The position numbers and the translations under genes are program-made. From NCBI GenBank assembly GCA_963809695.1, contig CAWEKI010000009.1, forward strand, positions 762,376 through 826,375: a stretch of 64,000 nt of DNA. Reading direction: 5' to 3'. Positions within the stretch are counted from its first letter, which is position 1, and each line of letters starts with the position of its first letter. The notes under the pieces were generated by a model that saw nothing but the letters and a program-made list of their open reading frames with translations, did not search any database and was not told the DNA's origin. Origin of the DNA: an uncultured Bacteroidota bacterium (GTDB lineage: Bacteria; Bacteroidota; Ignavibacteria; UBA10030; UBA6906). This document shows positions 21,914-51,215 of this stretch, one piece after another.

Positions 21914-21942
21914 TTGACACTTTGGTACAATTTGTGTAAATT
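21914..21942 (+). promoter_or_regulatory. sigma-70-type promoter for tRNA-Gln: TTGACA, 17-nt spacer, TAAATT
   Basis: Perfect -35 hexamer at 21914..21919 and a -10 hexamer at 21937..21942, 18 nt upstream of the tRNA 5' end. It sits at the end of a 535-bp AT-rich non-coding stretch. Confidence 0.5.
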
Positions 21943-21960: not shown

Positions 21961-22034
21961 TGCCCCGTCGTCTAATGGCAAGACAGCAGACTCTGGATCT
22001 GCTTATCGAGGTTCGAATCCTTGCGGGGCAGCCA
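21961..22034 (+). tRNA. tRNA-Gln (anticodon CTG), CCA encoded
   Basis: 7-bp acceptor stem tgccccg/cggggca with U1-A72. Anticodon loop cuCUGga. T-loop GGTTCGAATCC. Discriminator G followed by CCA. Confidence 0.9.
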
Positions 22035-22037
22035 CTA

Positions 22038-22071
22038 GCATTTTGGATTGCGGATTTTGGATTTTGGACTG
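22038..22071. repeat. left arm of a ~34-bp imperfect inverted repeat built of aaaatcc units, flanking the four-helix-bundle gene
   Basis: gcattttggattgcggattttggattttggactg is the reverse complement, with one unit transposed, of 22545..22578 cagaccaaaatccgcaatccaaaatccaaaatgc. Confidence 0.8.
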
Positions 22072-22162
22072 TTATCGCAAGCTGAGTACAGTCTCAATTC
22101 CAATTGCTATTTGAAAACTGGACCATGAACTGCCACACCCATTCGTTCAGAAGGAGTGTAGA

Positions 22163-22531
22163 GTGGCTGGCATCGAGCAGGATCTAAAGCAACGGATGAA
22201 GAAACTCGGCGTAGAGATCATCCGCATGGTTGAGGGTCTGCCTCACCAGCTTGGTGCTGAAACCATCGGCAAACAAATCATCCGATGTGCAACATCGATC
22301 GGGGCCAATTATCGCGCAGCCTGCCGTGCACGGTCAAAAGCCGACTTCATCGCAAAGATTGCTATTGCAGAAGAAGAGAGCGATGAAACGATGTACTGGC
22401 TTGAAGTGCTTCAGGAGTTGAAACTTGTTGAAGCCCAATCATTCGATGAGTTGCACCGTGAAGCTGAAGAGCTTACAAAAATCCTTGTGGCTTCCGGCAG
22501 AACGGCAAAACAGAGCATGGCAACGAAGTAA
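22163..22531 (+). CDS. four-helix-bundle protein (23S rRNA intervening-sequence protein / Avd-like family)
   Basis: 122 aa reading LKQRMKKLGVEIIRMVEGLPHQLGAETIGKQIIRCATSIGANYRAACRARSKADFIAKIAIAEEESDETMYWLEV. The conserved S-I-x-x-N-x-x-E-G and E-x-x-Y-W-L motifs of TIGR02436 are present. It is flanked by long inverted repeats as in rRNA IVS elements. Confidence 0.8.
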   Translation: MAGIEQDLKQRMKKLGVEIIRMVEGLPHQLGAETIGKQIIRCATSIGANYRAACRARSKADFIAKIAIAEEESDETMYWLEVLQELKLVEAQSFDELHREAEELTKILVASGRTAKQSMATK

Positions 22532-22544
22532 TCACTGCCACTCA

Positions 22545-22578
22545 CAGACCAAAATCCGCAATCCAAAATCCAAAATGC
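22545..22578. repeat. right arm of the inverted repeat flanking the four-helix-bundle gene
   Basis: Partner of 22038..22071. It ends 5 nt before tRNA-Glu. Confidence 0.8.
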
Positions 22579-22583
22579 TCGTT

Positions 22584-22656
22584 GGCCTTATCGTCTAACG
22601 GTTTAGGACGTAGCCCTCTCAAGGCTAAAATACGGGTTCGATTCCCGTTAAGGCTA
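22584..22656 (+). tRNA. tRNA-Glu (anticodon CTC); no encoded CCA
   Basis: Acceptor ggcctta/taaggct with a G1-U72 wobble. D-stem gtct/ggac. Anticodon stem tagcc/ggcta with loop ctCTCaa. T-arm acggg-TTCGATT-cccgt. Confidence 0.75.
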
Positions 22657-22754
22657 CATAACTCAACCCCTCCCATCTCCCCTTCTCTTTGAAGAATAAG
22701 AGAAGGGGAGTGTGTTGCGCCCCGCCTCCGTTCTCAGTTCACGTTTACCATTCT

Positions 22755-23840
22755 CTATTGATACGCGGCCCTCTCTAATTCGTCAACCGATTTAAACGGT
22801 GTTGGTGGCTTCAGATACTTTGCGAGGAAATTGTAGATCTTCATCCGTGTCTCCTTCGCAAGCTTCGTGTCGATCCTGTCGAAGCTGTGTCCTCCCGGCG
22901 CGTCCGTAACAATCTCATACTCGAACTTCTTCCCGGCCGCTTTCAGCGCTTCGATGAGATGTTCCACTTCGAGGACGTTCACATCGTCGTCGTTCGTATT
23001 CGTGTGGATGAGAAGAGGCGTGTTGAGCTCCTTGACGTGGTTCACCGGCGAGCGTTTCCTGTATTCGGCCACATCTTCGTTCGCAGTCTTGCCAAGATGG
23101 TACGGTGCCGAAAATTCCTGCCGATAATCATCGTCGTAGTATCCCATCCGCTGGACGAGGTCGCTCACCGGCACGCCGGCGAAGGCCACCTGGTAGTCGC
23201 TCGGGTGCTGAAAGATATCCATGAGCGTAATGAGTCCTCCGTGACTCCAGCCGATCGCGCCGACTCTACCGCCGTCCACGAAGTCATAATTCTGGATCAT
23301 GTAGTTGCGCGCGGCGTGGTTGTCGTCCACCTCCAGCCCGCCGTAGTCGATCTTCTCATAGAAGGATTTGCCATATCCCGTGCTGCCCCGGTATTCCGGA
23401 GCCACCACGATGTATCCCTGCGCGATCAGCTCGCGGATGATATGGGTATGATAGGTCGTAAAGTCGGCATGGACACCGCCATGTGGCAGCACCAGGAGGG
23501 GATATTTCTTTGAATGGTCAAGCTTTCGCGGGGCGAAAATGTATGCCCAGAATTTCAGCGGATTGCGGGCTCCCATGGCCGTGGGATTTTGCACATGGGC
23601 AGGAGGAGGCCCGACAATATAGACCTTGTCGATGCTGGCCACATCGCTGACCTTGTCATACCAGAGTACGTCATCCACCGCTTTTGCGAGCTGGTCGATG
23701 CGGTGGTCGAGCGCTTCGAATTTCTTGTCCAGCAGCTTTTCTAGCCGGGCGTTGTCATTGTCTTTCTCCTGCGAGAAGGCCGGACCGGAGAGAAGAATGA
23801 GAATGAACGCCGCCACAAGGGCGAATGCAGAGGATTTCAT
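22755..23840 (-). CDS. S9 family peptidase / alpha-beta hydrolase (prolyl oligopeptidase-type catalytic domain), secreted
   Basis: Signal peptide MKSSAFALVAAFILILLSGPAFSQ. Catalytic-domain motifs: VVAPEYRGSTGYG, IGWSHGG (the nucleophile elbow G-x-S-x-G), and a C-terminal D...H region. Confidence 0.8.
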   Translation of the reverse strand: MKSSAFALVAAFILILLSGPAFSQEKDNDNARLEKLLDKKFEALDHRIDQLAKAVDDVLWYDKVSDVASIDKVYIVGPPPAHVQNPTAMGARNPLKFWAYIFAPRKLDHSKKYPLLVLPHGGVHADFTTYHTHIIRELIAQGYIVVAPEYRGSTGYGKSFYEKIDYGGLEVDDNHAARNYMIQNYDFVDGGRVGAIGWSHGGLITLMDIFQHPSDYQVAFAGVPVSDLVQRMGYYDDDYRQEFSAPYHLGKTANEDVAEYRKRSPVNHVKELNTPLLIHTNTNDDDVNVLEVEHLIEALKAAGKKFEYEIVTDAPGGHSFDRIDTKLAKETRMKIYNFLAKYLKPPTPFKSVDELERAAYQ

Positions 23841-24078
23841 AGAGCACACGAGAGAAGTGAGAGAGAGCAAAAATGAAACGAATGTGATAAAAGATACTCT
23901 TCGGGAAGACGACAATCAATCAAGAAGCGCAAGGAGTTAAAGAATGGAAGATGGAGAATCGAAAATCGAGGATGGAGGGATTTTTCTCCTCAAGATGAAG
24001 AAGTCCAAAAAAACTTGGCCCCCATCTCGGAAAAACGACTTACGGACTGTAATACATATAGGAAGGAGGAAGCAATCA

Positions 24079-24459
24079 ATGGCCAAAGGAGACGATCTAC
24101 AGGAACGGTTCGTGAAACTGGCGGCTGCAGTGATTCAGTTGACCAGGAAGCTGCCGAAGGATGATGGGGGAAAACACCTGGGTGGGCAAATATTGCGCAG
24201 CGGAACTTCACCGGCACCTAATTACGCCGAGGCGAGAGGAGCAGAGAGCGACAAGGATGTTGTGCACAAGCTGGGCATCGTGCTAAAGGAGTTAAATGAG
24301 ACGGTTGTGTGGCTCCAGGTGGGAGCATGCAGCAACATCTGCACAGAAGAGGCGGTGGCCGGAATTCTGGAGGAGTGCCGGGTGCTGGCCAGGATCATTG
24401 CGGCGAGCATTAGCACGGTCAAAAGAAGAGTAGGAGCATTACCTGGTAGTGGCAGCTGA
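24079..24459 (+). CDS. four-helix-bundle protein (23S rRNA IVS protein / Avd-like family), second copy
   Basis: KGDDLQERFVKLAAAVIQLTRKLPKDDGGKHLGGQILRSGTSPAPNYAEARGAESDKDVVHKLGIVLKELNETVVWLQV matches the same family pattern as 22163..22531. GGAAGGAGGA ribosome-binding site before the ATG at 24079. The ORF-track extension back to 23944 is translated repeat DNA. Confidence 0.75.
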   Translation: MAKGDDLQERFVKLAAAVIQLTRKLPKDDGGKHLGGQILRSGTSPAPNYAEARGAESDKDVVHKLGIVLKELNETVVWLQVGACSNICTEEAVAGILEECRVLARIIAASISTVKRRVGALPGSGS

Positions 24460-24496
24460 TGTACAAGGGCGGATAAAAAAGACAACTCCAGCTTTG

Positions 24497-24596
24497 AGAG
24501 CCGGAGTTGATCGAAGATGAAGATTCGAGAATCGAAGATCGAAAATGACCCGCAATTCTCGATCCTCGATTTTCAATCCTCGATTTTCGATTCTTG
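24497..24596. repeat. hairpin/inverted-repeat element with atcgaaaatcgagga units, lying between the second four-helix-bundle gene and the 3' end of tRNA-Arg(ACG)
   Basis: gaagattcgagaatcgaagatcgaaaatg...attctcgatcctcgattttcaatcctcgattttcgattc contains complementary arms. A related left copy, ggagaatcgaaaatcgaggatgg, sits at 23950..23975. Confidence 0.5.
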
Positions 24597-24670
24597 TGCG
24601 CCTGGAGGGACTCGAACCCCCAACCGTCTGATCCGTAGTCAGGCACTCTATCCAATTGAGCTACAGGCGC
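24597..24670 (-). tRNA. tRNA-Arg (anticodon ACG); no encoded CCA
   Basis: Reverse complement GCGCCTGTAGCTCAATTGGATAGAGTGCCTGACTACGGATCAGACGGTTGGGGGTTCGAGTCCCTCCAGGCGCA. Acceptor gcgcctg/caggcgc, anticodon loop cuACGga, T-loop GGTTCGAGTCC. Confidence 0.85.
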
Positions 24671-27077: not shown

Positions 27078-27213
27078 AGGGAGGAGAAAAATTGAGGATG
27101 GAAGATGGAGGATGGAAGATGGAGGATGGAGGATGGAGGATGGAAGATTGAGAATTGAGCCTGCCTTTACATAATTTTCAATCCTCGATTCTCAATCTTC
27201 GATTTTCAATCCT
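27078..27213. repeat. degenerate long hairpin with no ORF; left arm is ggatggaagatggagg tandem units, right arm is tcaatcctcgattctcaatcttcgattttcaatcctc
   Basis: The left arm has about 6 tandem 11-12-bp units (gaggatggaag/atggaggatgg). The right arm is its approximate reverse complement around the loop cctgcctttacataa. Its sequence family is the same as the repeats flanking the 24079 gene. Confidence 0.5.
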
Positions 27214-27243
27214 CGTGCGCCTGACAGGAGTCGAACCTGCAAC
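27214..27243. repeat. 30-bp direct duplicate of the 3' end of tRNA-Arg(TCG)
   Basis: cgtgcgcctgacaggagtcgaacctgcaac at 27214..27243 is identical to 27326..27355. Two small hairpins (27248..27291 and 27297..27319) separate the copies. Confidence 0.8.
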
Positions 27244-27327
27244 TCCCAAAATAACACGACTTAACGTTTCCTGTTAAGTCGTTGTTATTTTGTGGATCCC
27301 GCTCGTTTTCCGAGCGGGACCTATACG

Positions 27328-27401
27328 TGCGCCTGACAGGAGTCGAACCTGCAACCCTCAGATCCGAAGTCTGATGCTCTATCCAGTTGAGCTACAGGCG
27401 C
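27328..27401 (-). tRNA. tRNA-Arg (anticodon TCG); no encoded CCA
   Basis: Reverse complement GCGCCTGTAGCTCAACTGGATAGAGCATCAGACTTCGGATCTGAGGGTTGCAGGTTCGACTCCTGTCAGGCGCA. Anticodon loop cuUCGga. T-loop GGTTCGACTCC. Confidence 0.85.
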
Positions 27402-47631: not shown

Positions 47632-48300
47632 CTAGTTCCAGATCCTCACTTCATCCATTTGACCTTGAAAGAAACCCGCAGCCGTCCCGTTTGAAGTCAT
47701 GCCAGTGGCAATTCCAGCACGCTGGATACTTGTTGCTTCGGGTGTCGCATTTACCGCAAGGGTCACCTCCAACTGGCCATTGAGATATAGTATCCAGGTA
47801 GTACCATCATATGTGGCAGCAGCATGATACCAGACGTTATTTGAGATCGTTGTGGTACCGAGAACCGGATGGTTCCCCCCATTAGCAGCATCCTCGAAGT
47901 CAGCGCCCAGAACATTCGTACTGTTAACCCCCAGGAAATAGTTCATGTTGAGATTTGCGGGAGTCTCCGCCTCACCTCTACCCTTGGTAACAAGGGGCAC
48001 TATTGTTGTCAATCCACCGTTGCCAGTGCTCGTCTGTACTCCATTGCCTGTCTTTTTGAACCACGTTTCTAAAGTGAATTGCGACAGCTTGAGACTTGCT
48101 GAATCCCCGAAGGTAACGTAGTCGTTCGAACCGTCGAACTGCAACCCCGTCTGTGCTTGCACGGCAGAACTCACACTTGCCAGCATTGCACAAATCACCA
48201 GTGCAAGGAAGAACTTCCTTTGGATAGAGTACCGGTCTGGTCTCATGATCAACTCCGACACATTATTCTGAAGAATACCAGGAAAAAACTTGTTGCGCAT
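47632..48300 (-). CDS. N-terminal fragment (signal peptide plus first LamG domain) of the 43458..47627 gene, separated by a 1-nt frameshift or stop near 47630
   Basis: Signal peptide FFLALVICAMLASVSSAVQAQ. LamG FTLETWFKKTGNG...WYHAAATYDGTTWILYLNG...DEVRIWN then TAG. The next frame reads TRALSQSEIQAG and continues into the downstream ORF; compare RIWNYARTQEDI inside that ORF. Confidence 0.7.
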   Translation of the reverse strand: MRNKFFPGILQNNVSELIMRPDRYSIQRKFFLALVICAMLASVSSAVQAQTGLQFDGSNDYVTFGDSASLKLSQFTLETWFKKTGNGVQTSTGNGGLTTIVPLVTKGRGEAETPANLNMNYFLGVNSTNVLGADFEDAANGGNHPVLGTTTISNNVWYHAAATYDGTTWILYLNGQLEVTLAVNATPEATSIQRAGIATGMTSNGTAAGFFQGQMDEVRIWN

Positions 48301-48512
48301 TGACGGTCGTCAATAGGTCTTTTGCGGACGGGAAGCGTACAGACGCAAGAACAAAACCAGGTTGGAGCTCTGCTCACCCTTACTCGAGGGCAGACGGAAG
48401 AATGAGAAGGGTAGAATAGAGTCATTCTGCCTTCTGCCCTCTACCCTCTAATGGGGAAGGGGTGAGTTCTCCGTAGATTAACCTCTAACCCCTATCACCT
48501 GGCACCTAACAC

Positions 48513-51215
48513 CTACTTCAACAGCAGCATCTTGTTTATCGCCGAGAACTGCCCCGCACGCATCCTGTAGAAATAGATCCCTGATGCCAACGGGACTCCG
48601 GCGTCACTCCGTCCGTTCCACTGCACGCTATAATATCCCGGTTCCTGAGCTCCGTTCATGAGCGTTGCCACTTCTTTGCCAAGTATGTCAAAGACCTTTA
48701 TCGTCACCTGACTGGCCACCGGCAGCTGATAGCTCACGACTGTCGTCGGATTGAACGGATTGGGATAGTTCTGCGAAAGGCCGAATGCCACCGGCACTCC
48801 CTTTCCTGTCCCTTGCGCCTTGATGGGGATCGCATGGTTGAATCCATCGCGCGCCTGTGCGGAGGAGACTCCAAGGCTTGCATTTCCTTCAAACCTGAGC
48901 CGGAGGATTTCACCGGATCCGTTGATGCAGGGCTCCTTTGAGGCGGGAAGCGCGAAGTCAACGAGGAGCCGGCCGTTTGCCTGCGTGCTCATCATGATGG
49001 GCGGGATCGTCCTCCCGTTCAGCAGGCTGCCCGGTTCAACGCCCAGGAATTTCCCATGCTGCCCGTTCAGCTCCAGCGAGAGCCCGCGCAGATCCGCGAC
49101 AGCACCGCTGAGCAGGACCGGGATCACCGTTTCTCCGCCGGCAATAACAGGCGAGCCTGTTACTACATCGATCGGCTCAACCTGCTGGACGCCTGGCTTG
49201 GCAATCTGGTGTCTTGAGCTGATGTTGTAGCTCATGGCAAAGATGAGAAGATCTTCAAAGTCGATCTTTCCATCGGCCACCGACCGGGTGAACAGGTACC
49301 CGTCCTGCGTCGGGCCGATATCGAATTTCTTCTTGTAGTTCGTCATGCCCCCCGCATAGCCGGAGACGCCTGACCAATAGCCAAGCGACCAGGCAGAAAG
49401 GTCTTCGAAATCGACCTTGCCGTCTCCGGAGGCCTCACTGCTGCCATAGACATCGGCGAGGTAGGCTCCGTGGAGTGCGTCGTGGGCGGTGACAAAGATG
49501 GAAGTCGCCGAGGGCAGACTCTCGAATGAACACCCGGTCACGGTCAAGCCGCTGCTTCCCGGTTTGATCACTTCAAGAACGATCTTCGCCACATACTGCC
49601 CCGGCGTGATGGTTGTATTACTCACCAGACTTGCAGTGAAATGGACACCCCCTCTCAATCCTGCAGTGTCAGGGATCGGGGGCACACTACTGAAGACCGA
49701 GCCGCTGAAATCCACCGATTTGTATCTGAGGACAGCGTCGTCCCAGTCGATGGTGAGGGCACAGCTGCCAAATTGGGCGCCGACTTCAGGCACAACGTAG
49801 ATCTCTTGAAGCTGTGTGCCGGTGAAGCCCCAGTCGTTCACCCGCGCCGGGTATCCTCCATCCCATCCGGCGTTCGGCCTGAACGTTGCCGAACTGGTCG
49901 CGCCTGAAGAAGAGCCCAGATAGAGATCGAATGCCCCGGCGGTTGGCTCCGCGAAGGCGAAATCGGTGAAGTGCATCGTTGTGAACGTGAACGTGTGGGC
50001 TGTGCTGTTGTAGATCCCGCCCACAGGGATCCAATCTCCGGAGGAGGCACTATAATAGAGCACGTTACTTTGCGCGCTGAAGCCCCCTATACCATTGACA
50101 TTTACCGTCACCGTGTCGCAGAAGCTGTGTGCGGGCAATGAAGATGTGATCTCAAACCAGAAAGGCAGACATGTTGCACCACCCGGAGGCGTCCACGCTG
50201 GCACGGAGGTGTGACGGGTGACGGTCACGCTCCCTCCTCCGGCAGGCAAGGTCCCAAAGCTCATTGATACACCACTCGTCGGGAAGCTATATGGCGTCCC
50301 GGTCTGCGTGACATTCGCTGTCTCGGAACCCGCCGGAGCGCCAGTCGTGAAGCTCCAGGTGGGACCCGTTATTGTAGAGATACCATCGCTCACGGTAGCA
50401 TACCATTCATACTCTGTCGAGTTTCCAAGTGAGGGCCAGGAGATGCTTGTGCTCGAACCCGATGCGACGCCCGCATTCGTTCCGAGCAATGTGAAAGGTG
50501 CGCTCGCATCCATGGTGTAGTCCAGGGTATACGGAGCCGCTCCGCCATAATTGAACTGAGGAATCGTGGGGGAGTAGGATTGTACGGTGATCTTGTTGTT
50601 CGCCGGAGAGAATGTGAGAATTCTCAGCCAGCCATCCCCCCCGTTGCTATCCTGGTAGTCGGACAGAATGGAATAGACGGGGTCCATGCCCGTGCGGGTA
50701 TCAGTTTTTTTCGCTTCGTAGCACGTATGGCCGGACAACATCAGGAAAAGATTCGGGTTGTCGCTGAGCGCGTTGTAGATGGCCGTTCCGGGAGCCGCGA
50801 AGGTTCCGGTATTAGTAAGGATCGAGTGACTGGCGACAATCGCACGCCGGGTGCTATACTCCTTGAGCCTTGCATCTGCCCAATCCAGCACTGCCGTAGT
50901 TGGTGTCTGGTCGCCAGACCCCAGATAGATGACAATGAAATCCATCCCACTGGCGGAAAAGAGCTCGAAGTTGTTGTTGTTATCCGACCCATAGTGACCG
51001 CCATAGTAGCTGCGGCCATCGAAGCGGGTGACGCCAAAGTAGTTGTTGTACAGGGTTGTCGTGTTTCCGTCAGGCAATTTGTCATGGTTGCCGATGGAGA
51101 TGCCATACGGGAGACCGGGCGACGGACTTTCCAGGATCGTCATCGCCGTGTTGGCCCTTTGCCACGACGCGTCGACATTATCGTTTGTGATGTCCCCCTC
51201 CATAATCACGGCCAC
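48513..51215 (-). CDS. C-terminal 900 aa of a giant T9SS protein: metallophosphoesterase (calcineurin-like) domain, conserved domain, cohesin-like, dockerin-like pair, CTD
   Basis: GNHDKL...LMLSGHTCYE (phosphoesterase His motifs). GDGKVDFEDLSAWSLGYW / ADGKIDFEDLLIFAMSY. The C-terminus ends NYPNPFNPTTVVSYQLP...IKVFDILGKEVATLM...YFYRMRAGQFSAINKMLLLK. Confidence 0.75.
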   Translation of the reverse strand: MAVIMEGDITNDNVDASWQRANTAMTILESPSPGLPYGISIGNHDKLPDGNTTTLYNNYFGVTRFDGRSYYGGHYGSDNNNNFELFSASGMDFIVIYLGSGDQTPTTAVLDWADARLKEYSTRRAIVASHSILTNTGTFAAPGTAIYNALSDNPNLFLMLSGHTCYEAKKTDTRTGMDPVYSILSDYQDSNGGDGWLRILTFSPANNKITVQSYSPTIPQFNYGGAAPYTLDYTMDASAPFTLLGTNAGVASGSSTSISWPSLGNSTEYEWYATVSDGISTITGPTWSFTTGAPAGSETANVTQTGTPYSFPTSGVSMSFGTLPAGGGSVTVTRHTSVPAWTPPGGATCLPFWFEITSSLPAHSFCDTVTVNVNGIGGFSAQSNVLYYSASSGDWIPVGGIYNSTAHTFTFTTMHFTDFAFAEPTAGAFDLYLGSSSGATSSATFRPNAGWDGGYPARVNDWGFTGTQLQEIYVVPEVGAQFGSCALTIDWDDAVLRYKSVDFSGSVFSSVPPIPDTAGLRGGVHFTASLVSNTTITPGQYVAKIVLEVIKPGSSGLTVTGCSFESLPSATSIFVTAHDALHGAYLADVYGSSEASGDGKVDFEDLSAWSLGYWSGVSGYAGGMTNYKKKFDIGPTQDGYLFTRSVADGKIDFEDLLIFAMSYNISSRHQIAKPGVQQVEPIDVVTGSPVIAGGETVIPVLLSGAVADLRGLSLELNGQHGKFLGVEPGSLLNGRTIPPIMMSTQANGRLLVDFALPASKEPCINGSGEILRLRFEGNASLGVSSAQARDGFNHAIPIKAQGTGKGVPVAFGLSQNYPNPFNPTTVVSYQLPVASQVTIKVFDILGKEVATLMNGAQEPGYYSVQWNGRSDAGVPLASGIYFYRMRAGQFSAINKMLLLK

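What the first reader, a model, noticed from the sequence alone, without database searches (positions are those of the whole stretch)
21961..22656. IVS-like element inside a tRNA operon: tRNA-Gln, long inverted repeat, Avd-family four-helix-bundle gene, inverted repeat, tRNA-Glu
The four-helix-bundle ORF (22163..22531) is bracketed by 34-bp inverted repeats built from aaaatcc units. The left repeat starts 3 nt after the CCA of tRNA-Gln and the right ends 5 nt before tRNA-Glu. This is the architecture of 23S rRNA intervening sequences, where a long stem is cut by RNase III and the ORF belongs to the same protein family as the diversity-generating-retroelement accessory protein Avd. Here the element is embedded between two tRNAs instead of in rRNA. 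That implies co-transcription of tRNA-Gln, ORF and tRNA-Glu with RNase III-type excision of the stem. I am not aware of a tRNA-embedded IVS of this kind being described.
Basis: partly seen in the sequence, partly recalled or inferred. Interest (0 to 1): 0.75.

Follow-up and report, generated by a model that had tools for sequence, protein, structure and literature searches.

The report
IVS-type gene cassette inside tRNA operon
A small four-helix-bundle gene enclosed by a long stem of 7-base repeats sits between two co-transcribed tRNA genes; it is the same kind of cassette as the "intervening sequences" of 23S rRNA, and the comparisons made here show such cassettes also sit in the spacers of tRNA and protein operons in many bacterial phyla.

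Summary
The window holds tRNA-Gln(CUG), a ~35-bp imperfect inverted repeat of 7-nt units, a 122-aa PF05635/TIGR02436 gene and tRNA-Glu(CUC), at the stated coordinates and far beyond chance.

Six lineages, with synonymous sites saturated, keep the same layout:
- a conserved TTGACA-17-TAAATT promoter upstream of tRNA-Gln;
- a closing stem that pairs the tRNA-Gln trailer with the tRNA-Glu leader;
- an ORF under strong purifying selection.

One lineage leaves only 48 and 26 nt around the ORF, so a single precursor is very likely. RNase III cleavage is inferred by analogy with 23S IVSs and was not tested.

The repeat belongs to the ORF family. In 64 of 83 homologous loci from many phyla the gene has period-7 inverted arms, usually flush against co-oriented neighbour genes such as pyrR-pyrB. 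tRNA neighbours are a minority (3 of 83). One is an independent Ignavibacteria case, tRNA-Arg to tRNA-Glu.

The Gln-Glu spacer is polymorphic across 63 metagenome loci: 26 are empty, 13 hold an ORF-less period-7 hairpin, and few hold hairpin plus ORF.

It is not an IVS in the strict sense, because no mature RNA is interrupted. I found no paper describing it. I rate it a new variant of a known kind, of moderate to high interest.

The parts
21914..21942 (+). Promoter-like site TTGACA-17 nt-TAAATT, about 18 nt upstream of tRNA-Gln
   Evidence: 10 of 12 consensus matches. Both hexamers and the 17-nt spacing are conserved in L002, L090, L091 and L092, although the flanking sequence has diverged.
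21961..22034 (+). tRNA-Gln (anticodon CUG), CCA encoded
   Evidence: ARAGORN; Rfam RF00005 60 bits.
22037..22072 (+). Left arm of the closing stem, made of 7-nt units (TTTGGAT / TGCGGAT)
   Evidence: period-7 segment 22034-22074; none found in shuffles.
22073..22162 (+). 5' untranslated region with Shine-Dalgarno AAGGAG (22151-22156). About 83 nt of it are absent from the L002 lineage.
   Evidence: Sequence read; alignment.
22163..22531 (+). Four-helix-bundle protein gene (122 aa; PF05635 / TIGR02436; S23p/Avd fold)
   Evidence: Purifying selection: pN 0.13-0.21 against pS 0.65-0.91.
22544..22579 (+). Right arm of the closing stem (AAAATCC / GCAATCC units), ending 4 nt before tRNA-Glu
22584..22657 (+). 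tRNA-Glu (anticodon CUC)
   Evidence: ARAGORN; Rfam 65.1 bits.
22677..22710 (.). Perfect 13-bp hairpin between the tRNA operon and the convergent peptidase S9 gene; a possible terminator, with no T-run
   Evidence: I5. Hairpins occupy the same position after tRNA-Glu in L090, L092 and L093.
23940..24595 (+). Second cassette of the same class. Arms are 23940-23977 and 24558-24595 (units GAATCGA / GGATGGA). The 4HB gene is 24079-24459, 32% identical to the first. The right arm abuts the 3' end of tRNA-Arg(acg) (24596-24670), which lies on the opposite strand.
   Evidence: An ortholog (82% identity) lies in the same place and orientation relative to tRNA-Arg(acg) in L130.
27087..27245 (-). ORF-less period-7 hairpin (27160-27215 pairs back into the GGATGGA/AGATGGA run). 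It abuts a 28-nt duplicate of the 3' end of tRNA-Arg(tcg) (27216-27243).

Best explanation
This is an IVS-type cassette lodged in the spacer of a two-tRNA operon. A single promoter upstream of tRNA-Gln(CUG) drives one precursor: tRNA-Gln, cassette, tRNA-Glu(CUC). tRNA-Glu has no promoter of its own, so the host must transcribe through the cassette, and the cassette is therefore always expressed. In the precursor, the two arms of degenerate 7-nt repeats pair into a ~35-bp imperfect helix. This helix joins the tRNA-Gln 3' trailer to the tRNA-Glu 5' leader and loops out the mRNA. By analogy with 23S rRNA IVSs and with rRNA processing stems, a double-strand-specific RNase (RNase III) cuts this helix. 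That cut separates the two pre-tRNAs, which RNase P and 3' trimming then finish, and releases an mRNA whose ends stay paired. The mRNA is translated into a four-helix-bundle protein of the S23p/Avd family. The protein is under strong purifying selection, so it is made and used. Its role is unknown; I consider binding to structured RNA most likely, possibly to its own stem, as Avd binds an RNA stem-loop in the DGR ribonucleoprotein. The cassette belongs to a widespread class (period-7 stem, with or without a 4HB ORF) that occupies spacers of transcription units: rRNA, tRNA and protein operons. At a given site it occurs as empty, hairpin-only or hairpin-plus-ORF alleles. What is shown: the anatomy, the family membership, conservation of the layout, selection on the ORF and on the arms, the site polymorphism, and the family-wide link between arms and ORF. 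What is inferred: the single precursor, RNase III cleavage, translation, and the protein's function.
For: Anatomy and family.

The same layout is kept in six lineages: the window, the L002 group, L090, L091, L092 and L093.

The promoter hexamers TTGACA and TAAATT are conserved with 17-nt spacing. No +-strand promoter-like or terminator-like site lies between the tRNAs. In L002 only 48 nt and 26 nt lie between the ORF and the tRNAs, all of it arm sequence.

In every lineage the MFE fold of the spacer closes with 27-56 pairs, running from nt 1-3 after tRNA-Gln to the last nt before tRNA-Glu. Duplex energies are -20 to -71 kcal/mol and beat all 200 shuffles.

A-to-G changes at the base of the stem in L091 and L092 give G.U pairs. 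In L092 and L093 both arms carry the TCGA variant.

The arms are 81-82% identical between lineages whose synonymous sites differ at 65-91%. pN is 0.13-0.21.

Family-wide: 64 of 83 loci from many phyla have flanking inverted arms that beat all shuffles. Arms have a median length of 32 nt and are 87% complementary. Lag-7 autocorrelation is 0.66, against about 0.2 at other lags. The left arm ends a median 22 nt before the start codon and the right arm begins a median 3 nt after the stop. Flanking genes lie a median 10 and 13 nt from the arms, and 35 of 51 cassettes are co-oriented with both neighbours. Examples are pyrR-cassette-pyrB and RT-cassette-Cas1.

An independent tRNA-embedded case is L010: tRNA-Arg(tct), stem, 4HB, stem, tRNA-Glu(ttc).

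Site polymorphism: among 63 Gln-to-Glu pairs, 26 spacers are 30 nt or shorter, 13 are ORF-less period-7 closing hairpins, and 1-2 carry the ORF. L130 and L115 have the same arms as the window but no ORF.

Precedent: the Coxiella 23S IVS has a 28-bp terminal stem, heptameric repeats upstream of S23p and mapped RNase III cuts (PMC4990558). Avd binds an RNA stem-loop (bioRxiv 10.1101/2023.10.23.563531).
Against: There are no RNA data, so the precursor, the cleavage and the translation are all unobserved.

The stem has three internal mismatch sites and two competing registers, and RNase III determinants cannot be read from sequence.

The excess of G.U-type over A.C-type mismatches across 57 loci is weak (68 against 46, p = 0.049). 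Clear double-compensatory changes are few, because the arms are repetitive and only six lineages are available.

The window carries about 83 extra nt between the left arm and the ORF. This stretch could hide a promoter that the sigma-70 scan does not model; the organism belongs to the FCB group, where promoters can differ.

The second cassette in the window is antisense to its tRNA neighbour. A terminator-like hairpin (24470-24507, - strand) appears to separate it from the tRNA-Arg transcript. Sense co-transcription is therefore not universal for the class.

In Coxiella the excised IVS RNA is labile and S23p is probably not made, so analogy alone does not predict a translated mRNA.

The protein is about net-neutral by my residue count, unlike the basic Avd. 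This weakens the RNA-binding guess.
Confidence: 0.62

Rival explanations
1. The cassette is a DNA-level mobile element (MITE- or IS-like). On this view the inverted repeats are terminal recombination sites recognised by a transposase or recombinase acting in trans, or by the 4HB protein itself. tRNA ends would be preferred targets, and the RNA stem would be incidental.
For: The same site shows presence and absence states: empty, hairpin-only and hairpin plus ORF. The class is widely and patchily spread across phyla. Insertions lie flush with gene ends. Several tandem duplications carry tRNA 3' ends next to the arms: window 27216-27243, L002 3590-3700 and L160. Older literature proposed that IVSs are transposition remnants or mobile elements (quoted in PMC4990558).
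Against: The arms differ completely between cassettes of the same genome: AAAATCC, TCGATTT/GGATGGA and CAGAAGG units. They also differ between loci, which is not expected for ends recognised by one enzyme. No direct target duplication flanks the arms. No transposase or recombinase is conserved nearby, and the neighbours differ in every lineage. The Gln-Glu cassette has been inherited vertically through saturating synonymous divergence. The mismatch bias, though weak, favours G.U on the sense strand.
Confidence: 0.15
2. The gene is an ordinary, independently expressed small gene that happens to lie between two tRNAs. On this view the arms act as a protein-binding operator, an insulator or an mRNA-stabilising clamp, with no endonucleolytic excision. 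The tRNAs would be matured by RNase P, RNase E and RNase Z alone.
For: The window has a 90-nt 5' UTR with a good Shine-Dalgarno sequence. The repeated 7-nt units look like iterated binding sites for an oligomer; S23p and Avd are pentamers. mRNAs co-transcribed with tRNAs, such as E. coli tufB, are matured without RNase III (my own knowledge). The second cassette is transcribed on its own, opposite to its tRNA.
Against: L002 has no room for a promoter: 48 nt, all of it arm. No promoter-like site was found. The stem seals both tRNA ends to within 0-4 nt in all lineages, and this would hinder RNase P and 3' trimming unless the helix is opened. Homologous stems in 23S rRNA are proven RNase III substrates.
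Confidence: 0.13
3. The arms have no function. On this view they are products of replication slippage of 7-nt repeats, and the ORF is a decaying selfish remnant, as proposed for Coxiella S23p.
For: Heptanucleotide repeats are the most common long simple repeats in many bacterial genomes and are prone to slippage (PMC4679880). Unit numbers vary between lineages and duplications are frequent. Coxiella S23p is decaying.
Against: The ORF shows pN 0.13-0.21 against saturated pS. The arms are 81-82% conserved and remain complementary in all six lineages. In 64 of 83 loci the complementary arms exceed every shuffle. Slippage yields direct repeats, not matched inverted arms on both sides of a gene.
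Confidence: 0.06
4. The gene is the Avd accessory gene of a diversity-generating retroelement, or a remnant of one.
For: The fold matches bAvd (4DWL, TM 0.74) and the DGR RNP (8UB7). PF05635 is the commonest Pfam family in DGR loci (PMC10053308).
Against: No reverse transcriptase lies among the neighbours in the window or in any orthologous locus. No template or variable repeat pair is present. The closest structures are the stand-alone S23p proteins 2RLD and 2GSC, not Avd.
Confidence: 0.03

Closest known systems
ORF-bearing intervening sequences (IVS) of 23S rRNA (Leptospira, Coxiella burnetii, Xanthomonas, Brucella; also 16S/23S insertions in CPR bacteria)
   Same: Terminal inverted repeats form a long stem (28 bp in Coxiella). 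A PF05635/S23p four-helix-bundle ORF lies in the loop, in the sense orientation of a very strongly transcribed stable-RNA operon. The stem region contains tandem heptameric repeats. The distribution is sporadic, with ORF-less and ORF-bearing versions at the same site (PMC4990558; bioRxiv 10.1101/2024.02.27.582315).
   Different: The cassette here lies in an inter-tRNA spacer and not inside a mature RNA, so excision fragments nothing. Here the ORF is under strong purifying selection and has a good Shine-Dalgarno sequence; Coxiella's ORF is decaying and probably untranslated. RNase III cleavage has been demonstrated for IVSs but only inferred here.
rRNA processing stems (the RNase III helices flanking 16S and 23S rRNA in the 30S precursor)
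   Same: A long helix forms between sequences 5' and 3' of the looped-out product. Cleavage separates neighbouring stable RNAs of one precursor (PMC8708148).
   Different: The looped-out product here is an mRNA, and the separated neighbours are tRNAs. The stem is built of 7-nt repeats and is polymorphic in populations.
Heptanucleotide-repeat hairpins in other stable RNAs of cyanobacteria: the Nostoc trnL(UAA) intron P6b 'Class I' motif TDNGATT, and STRR repeats in RNase P RNA
   Same: These hairpins are built from degenerate 7-nt units; TTGGATT in this window fits TDNGATT. They are lodged in tRNA-related or other stable-RNA transcripts, vary in length and are repeatedly replaced between lineages (PMC4476775). 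The RNase P case is from my own knowledge (Vioque 1997) and was only glimpsed.
   Different: No ORF is involved in those cases. They lie inside an intron or an RNA helix rather than in an operon spacer. No relationship to 4HB genes has been described.
bAvd, the accessory protein of diversity-generating retroelements
   Same: It has the same four-helix-bundle fold (TM 0.74). It is a pentameric barrel that binds an RNA stem-loop.
   Different: It shares only 12% identity. Avd works with a reverse transcriptase and a TR/VR pair, and none is present here. Avd is strongly basic, whereas this protein is about neutral.
mRNAs co-transcribed with tRNAs (for example E. coli thrU-tyrU-glyT-thrT-tufB)
   Same: A protein-coding gene shares a promoter with tRNA genes and is freed by RNA processing (my own knowledge).
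   Different: tufB is a host housekeeping gene at the end of its operon and has no enclosing stem. The gene here is an insertion-like cassette between two tRNAs, with empty alleles in related lineages.

Membership tests
PF05635 / TIGR02436 (23S rRNA IVS protein, 'S23p', four helix bundle protein) | HMM score above the curated cut-off | tested here: met
   PF05635: 78.8 bits against a cut-off of 33.8. TIGR02436: 95.8 bits against 24. 1672 homologs at E<=1e-5, all carrying PF05635.
PF05635 / TIGR02436 (23S rRNA IVS protein, 'S23p', four helix bundle protein) | Up-down four-helix bundle of about 110-120 residues | tested here: met
   AF2 pLDDT 96.4, helices at 2-24, 30-54, 59-85 and 91-120. Foldseek: 2RLD TM 0.82, 2GSC TM 0.81. 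phmmer: 2rld_A at 2.9e-18.
PF05635 / TIGR02436 (23S rRNA IVS protein, 'S23p', four helix bundle protein) | Homopentameric toroid | not tested
   Only the monomer was modelled. The pentamer is known for 2GSC, 2RLD and 4DWL.
23S rRNA intervening sequence (IVS), strict sense | Inserted within a helix of a mature rRNA, so that excision fragments the rRNA | tested here: not met
   The cassette lies between tRNA-Gln and tRNA-Glu. There is no rRNA in the window (Rfam), and both tRNAs are intact.
23S rRNA intervening sequence (IVS), strict sense | Terminal inverted repeats forming a long stem that closes the whole insert | tested here: met
   (32 closing pairs in the window; 27-56 in orthologs).
23S rRNA intervening sequence (IVS), strict sense | Excision by RNase III without religation | not testable with these tools
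   Needs RNA end-mapping or an in-vitro RNase III assay.
23S rRNA intervening sequence (IVS), strict sense | Sporadic presence at a fixed site among relatives, with ORF-less and ORF-bearing forms | tested here: met
   Among 63 Gln-to-Glu pairs, 26 are empty, 13 have ORF-less period-7 hairpins and 1-2 carry the ORF.
Diversity-generating retroelement (Avd as accessory gene) | Adjacent reverse transcriptase and a template/variable repeat pair | tested here: not met
   The neighbours are MpsC, peptidase S9, a cytidylyltransferase, Memo and others. Orthologous loci have different neighbours and none is an RT.
Transposable element with terminal inverted repeats (IS or MITE) | Ends shared between copies of one genome, a flanking target-site duplication, and a transposase in cis or trans | tested here: not met
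   The arms of the cassettes in this window share no unit sequence. No direct repeat flanks the arms. No transposase lies nearby. A trans-acting enzyme elsewhere in the genome cannot be excluded.
Period-7 stem / 4HB operon-spacer cassette (class defined here from the survey) | A PF05635 ORF hugged by complementary arms of degenerate 7-nt units, lying flush in the spacer of a transcription unit | tested here: met
   Window. Class: 64 of 83 loci, lag-7 autocorrelation 0.66, gaps of 10 and 13 nt to neighbouring genes.

The most novel reading that the evidence does not exclude
The period-7 stem, with or without a four-helix-bundle gene, is a previously unrecognised and very widespread class of selfish cassette that lives at the RNA level inside host transcription units: rRNA helices, tRNA-operon spacers and protein-operon spacers. 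The 23S rRNA IVS would be only its first-noticed special case. On this reading the 4HB protein acts on the cassette's own stem, by protecting it, processing it or copying it. Given its kinship with Avd, it might do so with a reverse transcriptase acting in trans. That would explain how the cassette reaches new spacers and why tRNA 3' ends are duplicated beside it.
Probability: 0.25. Interest if true: 0.85.

Novelty: new variant of a known kind. Interest (0 to 1): 0.62.

Why it matters
The function and origin of 23S rRNA intervening sequences, and of their S23p/Avd-like proteins, have been open questions since about 1990. Here the same cassette is an intact, selected gene in a tRNA operon, with natural empty, hairpin-only and ORF-bearing alleles at one site. 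Homologous loci from many phyla show the same arms in ordinary operons. This moves the problem away from an oddity of rRNA towards a general, testable system. The open questions become: a stem that insulates an inserted gene within a host transcript; a protein family of unknown role present in thousands of genomes under the label 'four helix bundle protein'; and a possible role in tRNA precursor processing. There are also practical consequences for annotation. Gene callers read through the arms, giving 'NPKSKIRNPK' tails, and even through the tRNA (P0015).

Tried and rejected
- Rfam, all families, at gathering thresholds on the window and on 20 related loci. It found only tRNAs and one S15 leader, so no known RNA family covers the stem.
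- Eight full-text literature searches on PF05635, S23p, the IVS protein, four-helix bundle with tRNA, and heptamer repeats. They returned the Coxiella IVS, CPR rRNA insertion, DGR and Nostoc trnL papers. None describes tRNA-embedded or operon-embedded 4HB cassettes. The library lacks most subscription journals, so this is not proof of absence.
- Enrichment of tRNA neighbours. 3 of 83 loci adjoin a tRNA. That is about the base rate for any gene, roughly 2-3% by my estimate, so I reject 'tRNA-targeting' as a property of the class.
- Co-orientation. 35 of 51 cassettes share orientation with both neighbours. This is only moderately above the roughly 50% I would expect for bacterial genes, so I use it as context and not as proof.
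- G.U against A.C mismatch asymmetry, as a test for sense-strand RNA pairing. The result was 68 against 46, p = 0.049. This is suggestive only.
- Formal covariation counting on the arms. I abandoned it because the 7-nt repeats make the alignment register ambiguous and only six lineages are available. Per-lineage folds are reported instead.
- The tblastn 'hits' of P0015 next to tRNA-Gln are artefacts: that gene call runs across tRNA-Glu.
- Organism identity. The exact protein is on an 831,696-bp NCBI contig with no name attached. The species is not among the GTDB representatives returned (best hit 56% identity). T9SS sorting domains point to the FCB group. I ran no further search on this.
- P0002 and P0004 loci could not be read because the sample file was too large.
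Full report
**1. The observation**

ARAGORN and Rfam agree on tRNA-Gln(ctg) at 21961-22034 and tRNA-Glu(ctc) at 22584-22657, both on the + strand. Between them lies one substantial ORF, 22163-22531 (GTG start, 122 aa, AAGGAG 6 nt upstream). It scores 78.8 bits on PF05635 (cut-off 33.8) and 95.8 bits on TIGR02436 (cut-off 24).

The ORF is bracketed by inverted arms at 22034-22072 and 22544-22582. They are 39 nt long and 85% complementary, with a 21-nt perfect core in a register shifted by one unit. The arms are made of 7-nt units: TTTGGAT/TGCGGAT on the left, AAAATCC/GCAATCC on the right.

This is well beyond chance:
- The unit pattern occurs 4 times, against 0.29 expected.
- The arm duplex is -48.2 kcal/mol, against a best of -32.0 in 200 shuffles.
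- Period-7 segments are absent from shuffled windows.

In the MFE fold both tRNAs are cloverleaves. The stem runs from 2 nt after the CCA of tRNA-Gln to 4 nt before tRNA-Glu.

**2. The layout is conserved and selected**

The exact protein (P0001) sits on an unnamed 831-kb NCBI contig. Its closest homologs (68-77% identical; P0003, P0005, P0007, P0008) come from independent metagenome assemblies.

Every locus that could be read has the same order: promoter, tRNA-Gln(ctg), arm, 4HB ORF, arm, tRNA-Glu(ctc). In the L002 group tRNA-Arg(acg) follows. The hexamers TTGACA and TAAATT, with 17-nt spacing, are conserved upstream of tRNA-Gln although the surrounding sequence has diverged.

No +-strand promoter-like or terminator-like site lies between the two tRNAs in the window or in L002. 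In L002 only 48 nt separate tRNA-Gln from the start codon, and only 26 nt separate the stop codon from tRNA-Glu. All of that sequence is arm. A separate promoter for the ORF or for tRNA-Glu is therefore very unlikely in that lineage.

Folding the complete spacer of each lineage gives a closing stem of 27-56 pairs. It runs from nt 1-3 after tRNA-Gln to the last nt before tRNA-Glu, and its duplex energies beat all shuffles.

Synonymous sites of the ORF are saturated between lineages (pS 0.65-0.91), while pN is 0.13-0.21. The protein has therefore been maintained by purifying selection over a long time. The arms remain 81-82% identical, so they are constrained too.

At the base of the stem, A-to-G changes in L091 and L092 create G.U pairs. 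In L092 and L093 both arms carry the same TCGA variant. This fits pairing in sense-strand RNA, but the sample is small.

**3. The repeat belongs to the gene family, not to this genome or to tRNAs**

Many homologs end in tails such as NPKSKIRNPK. These tails are translations of AAAATCC repeats.

A scan of one genome per species returned 80 loci from Ignavibacteria, Planctomycetota, Chloroflexota, Bacteroidota, Verrucomicrobiota, Acidobacteriota, Nitrospirota, Cyanobacteria and other groups. My script gave these results:
- 64 of 83 ORFs have flanking inverted arms that beat all 20 shuffles.
- The arms have a median length of 32 nt and are 87% complementary.
- Lag-7 autocorrelation is 0.66, against about 0.2 at other lags.
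- The left arm ends a median 22 nt before the start codon, and the right arm starts a median 3 nt after the stop.
- The unit sequence differs from locus to locus: GATTTCG, GAATGCG, GATTTAC, CAGAAGT, GTAATTT and others.
- The arms lie a median 10 nt and 13 nt from the neighbouring genes, and 35 of 51 cassettes are co-oriented with both neighbours.

Examples are pyrR-cassette-pyrB in two Mucilaginibacter genomes, and RT-cassette-Cas1 in a Chloroflexota genome.

Only 3 of 83 loci adjoin a tRNA, which is about the base rate. One of them, L010 (Ignavibacteria), is an independent copy of the architecture with different tRNAs: tRNA-Arg(tct), stem, 4HB, stem, tRNA-Glu(ttc). Its stem closes 5 nt from each tRNA.

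**4. The Gln-Glu spacer is a polymorphic site**

I searched metagenome contigs for the 22-nt 3' half of this tRNA-Gln. This returned 63 tRNA-Gln(ctg)-to-tRNA-Glu(ctc) pairs, which fall into these classes:

| Spacer class | Loci |
|---|---|
| 30 nt or shorter, unstructured | 26 |
| 31-60 nt | 14 |
| Longer than 60 nt, ORF-less closing hairpin with period-7 arms | 13 |
| Closing stem only | 2 |
| Other | 7 |
| Carrying the 4HB ORF (L160) | 1 |

L112 also carries the ORF, but its contig ends before tRNA-Glu, so it is not among the 63.

L130 and L115 have the window's own arm sequence (TTTGGAT units, base ...CCAAAATGCT) around a loop of about 25 nt. They are ORF-less versions of the same element.

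This empty / hairpin-only / hairpin-plus-ORF pattern is what is described for IVS and rRNA insertion sites.

**5. Other cassettes in the window**

- A second 4HB gene (24079-24459, 32% identical to the first) is enclosed by arms 23940-23977 and 24558-24595, made of different units. Its right arm abuts the 3' end of tRNA-Arg(acg) on the opposite strand. A local hairpin and a terminator-like stem with a T-run (24470-24507, - strand) follow that tRNA. This cassette is therefore convergent with its tRNA and is not co-transcribed in sense. L130 has the ortholog (82% identity) in the same relative position.
- An ORF-less period-7 hairpin at 27087-27215 abuts a 28-nt duplicate of the 3' end of tRNA-Arg(tcg).
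- Another ORF-less hairpin lies between two protein genes at 48386-48441.
- All period-7 segments of the 64-kb window belong to these four places.

**6. The protein**

AlphaFold2 gives a confident four-helix bundle (pLDDT 96.4). Foldseek finds:
- 2RLD (Bacteroides 'S23 ribosomal protein family', TM 0.82);
- 2GSC (Xanthomonas XCC0516);
- bAvd 4DWL (TM 0.74);
- the DGR ribonucleoprotein 8UB7.

No reverse transcriptase is nearby in the window or in the orthologous loci, so this is a stand-alone member and not a DGR component. Avd is a pentameric barrel that binds an RNA stem-loop. That is a precedent for RNA binding and nothing more.

**7. Mechanism**

The best-supported model has these steps:
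1. One promoter drives a tRNA-Gln / cassette / tRNA-Glu precursor.
2. The period-7 arms pair the tRNA-Gln trailer with the tRNA-Glu leader.
3. A double-strand-specific RNase, by analogy RNase III, cuts the helix.
4. The pre-tRNAs are finished by RNase P and 3' trimming.
5. The released mRNA is translated.

tRNA-Glu depends on read-through, so the cassette is guaranteed transcription.

The anatomy, the conservation, the selection, the site polymorphism and the family-wide link between arms and ORF are shown. The precursor, the cleavage, the translation and the protein's role are inferred.

The analogy rests on the Coxiella 23S IVS. That element has a 28-bp terminal stem, mapped RNase III cuts, and tandem heptameric repeats (GACAGAT) just upstream of the S23p start. 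It also rests on rRNA processing stems.

**8. Comparison with what is known, and novelty**

The cassette works like an ORF-bearing 23S rRNA IVS, but it fails the defining feature of an IVS because it interrupts no mature RNA. It is a member of PF05635/TIGR02436. It is not a DGR, and it does not behave like a TIR transposon: the arms are not shared between copies, there is no target duplication, and there is no transposase.

Heptanucleotide-repeat hairpins in the Nostoc trnL intron (motif TDNGATT, which TTGGATT fits) are a further resemblance.

I found no paper that describes such cassettes in tRNA operons or in protein operons, or that links 4HB genes generally to period-7 inverted arms. The searched library is incomplete.

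I rate this a new variant of a known kind. The broader reading, an unrecognised class of transcript-resident cassettes of which the IVS is a special case, is not excluded. It would be of high interest.

Noticed in passing
window 23940-24670: A second four-helix-bundle cassette. The arms are 23940-23977 and 24558-24595, and the ORF is 24079-24459 with a strong AGGAGG. Its right arm abuts the 3' end of tRNA-Arg(acg), which is on the opposite strand. A local hairpin (24509-24545 / 24555-24594) competes for the same right arm. A terminator-like stem with a T-run lies at 24470-24507 on the - strand.
   Followed up: partly
window 27087-27401: An ORF-less hairpin of 7-nt units, plus a run of about ten GGATGGA/AGATGGA repeats, abuts a 28-nt exact duplicate (27216-27243) of the 3' end of tRNA-Arg(tcg) (27327-27401, - strand). 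The 83 nt between the duplicate and the real tRNA hold two further hairpins.
   Followed up: partly
window 48386-48516: An ORF-less inverted repeat of 7-nt units (GAGGGCA/GACGGAA..., 20 nt, 90% complementary) is followed by direct heptamer repeats (CTAACCC/CTATCAC/CTGGCAC/CTAACAC). It lies in the spacer between two - strand ORFs (47632-48300 and 48513-51215). Such hairpins are therefore not confined to tRNA flanks in this genome.
   Followed up: partly
L002 3590-3800; L160 (Gln-Glu spacer); L135 and L140 spacers: Tandem duplications recur that include the last 7-28 nt of a tRNA together with the adjacent repeat arm. In L160 the duplicate also includes the first ~45 nt of the ORF. L140 holds a disrupted tRNA-Glu copy inside the hairpin. 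This may reflect slippage or recombination at the repeats, or an integration mechanism. Assembly artefacts are not excluded.
   Followed up: no
L039 1507-3904 (Candidatus Leptofilum, Chloroflexota): A 4HB cassette with period-7 arms lies flush between a reverse-transcriptase gene (RVT_1) and cas1, inside an RT-Cas1 CRISPR adaptation locus. PF05635 has been reported near cas genes before (PMC3936711 was listed but not read).
   Followed up: no
L015 1854-3881 and L023 3-2001 (Mucilaginibacter): The cassette is inserted between pyrR and pyrB, with only 2-10 nt between the arms and the flanking genes. This is an orthologous insertion in two species of one genus.
   Followed up: partly
proteins P0015, P0043, P0054, P0063, P0069, P0076, P0116: These are gene-calling artefacts. 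Many database 4HB proteins carry C-terminal tails such as NPKSKIRNPK, which are translations of the AAAATCC-type right arm. P0015's call runs on across tRNA-Glu, which produced false tblastn hits.
   Followed up: yes
window 22073-22162 versus L002 2990-3000: The window lineage has about 83 extra nt between the left arm and the ORF start. These are absent in the L002 lineage. L090-L093 have 5' UTRs of comparable length (~55 nt) but unrelated sequence. This part of the cassette evolves fast, as reported for the region upstream of S23p in Coxiella.
   Followed up: partly
L130 (oriented) 81-1264: One metagenome lineage combines an ORF-less version of cassette 1, with the same arms, and an intact ortholog of cassette 2 downstream of tRNA-Arg(acg). 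Here the tRNAs are in the order Gln-Glu-Arg on one strand. The window has therefore undergone an inversion or insertion that placed the peptidase S9 gene (22755-23915) between tRNA-Glu and the tRNA-Arg segment.
   Followed up: partly
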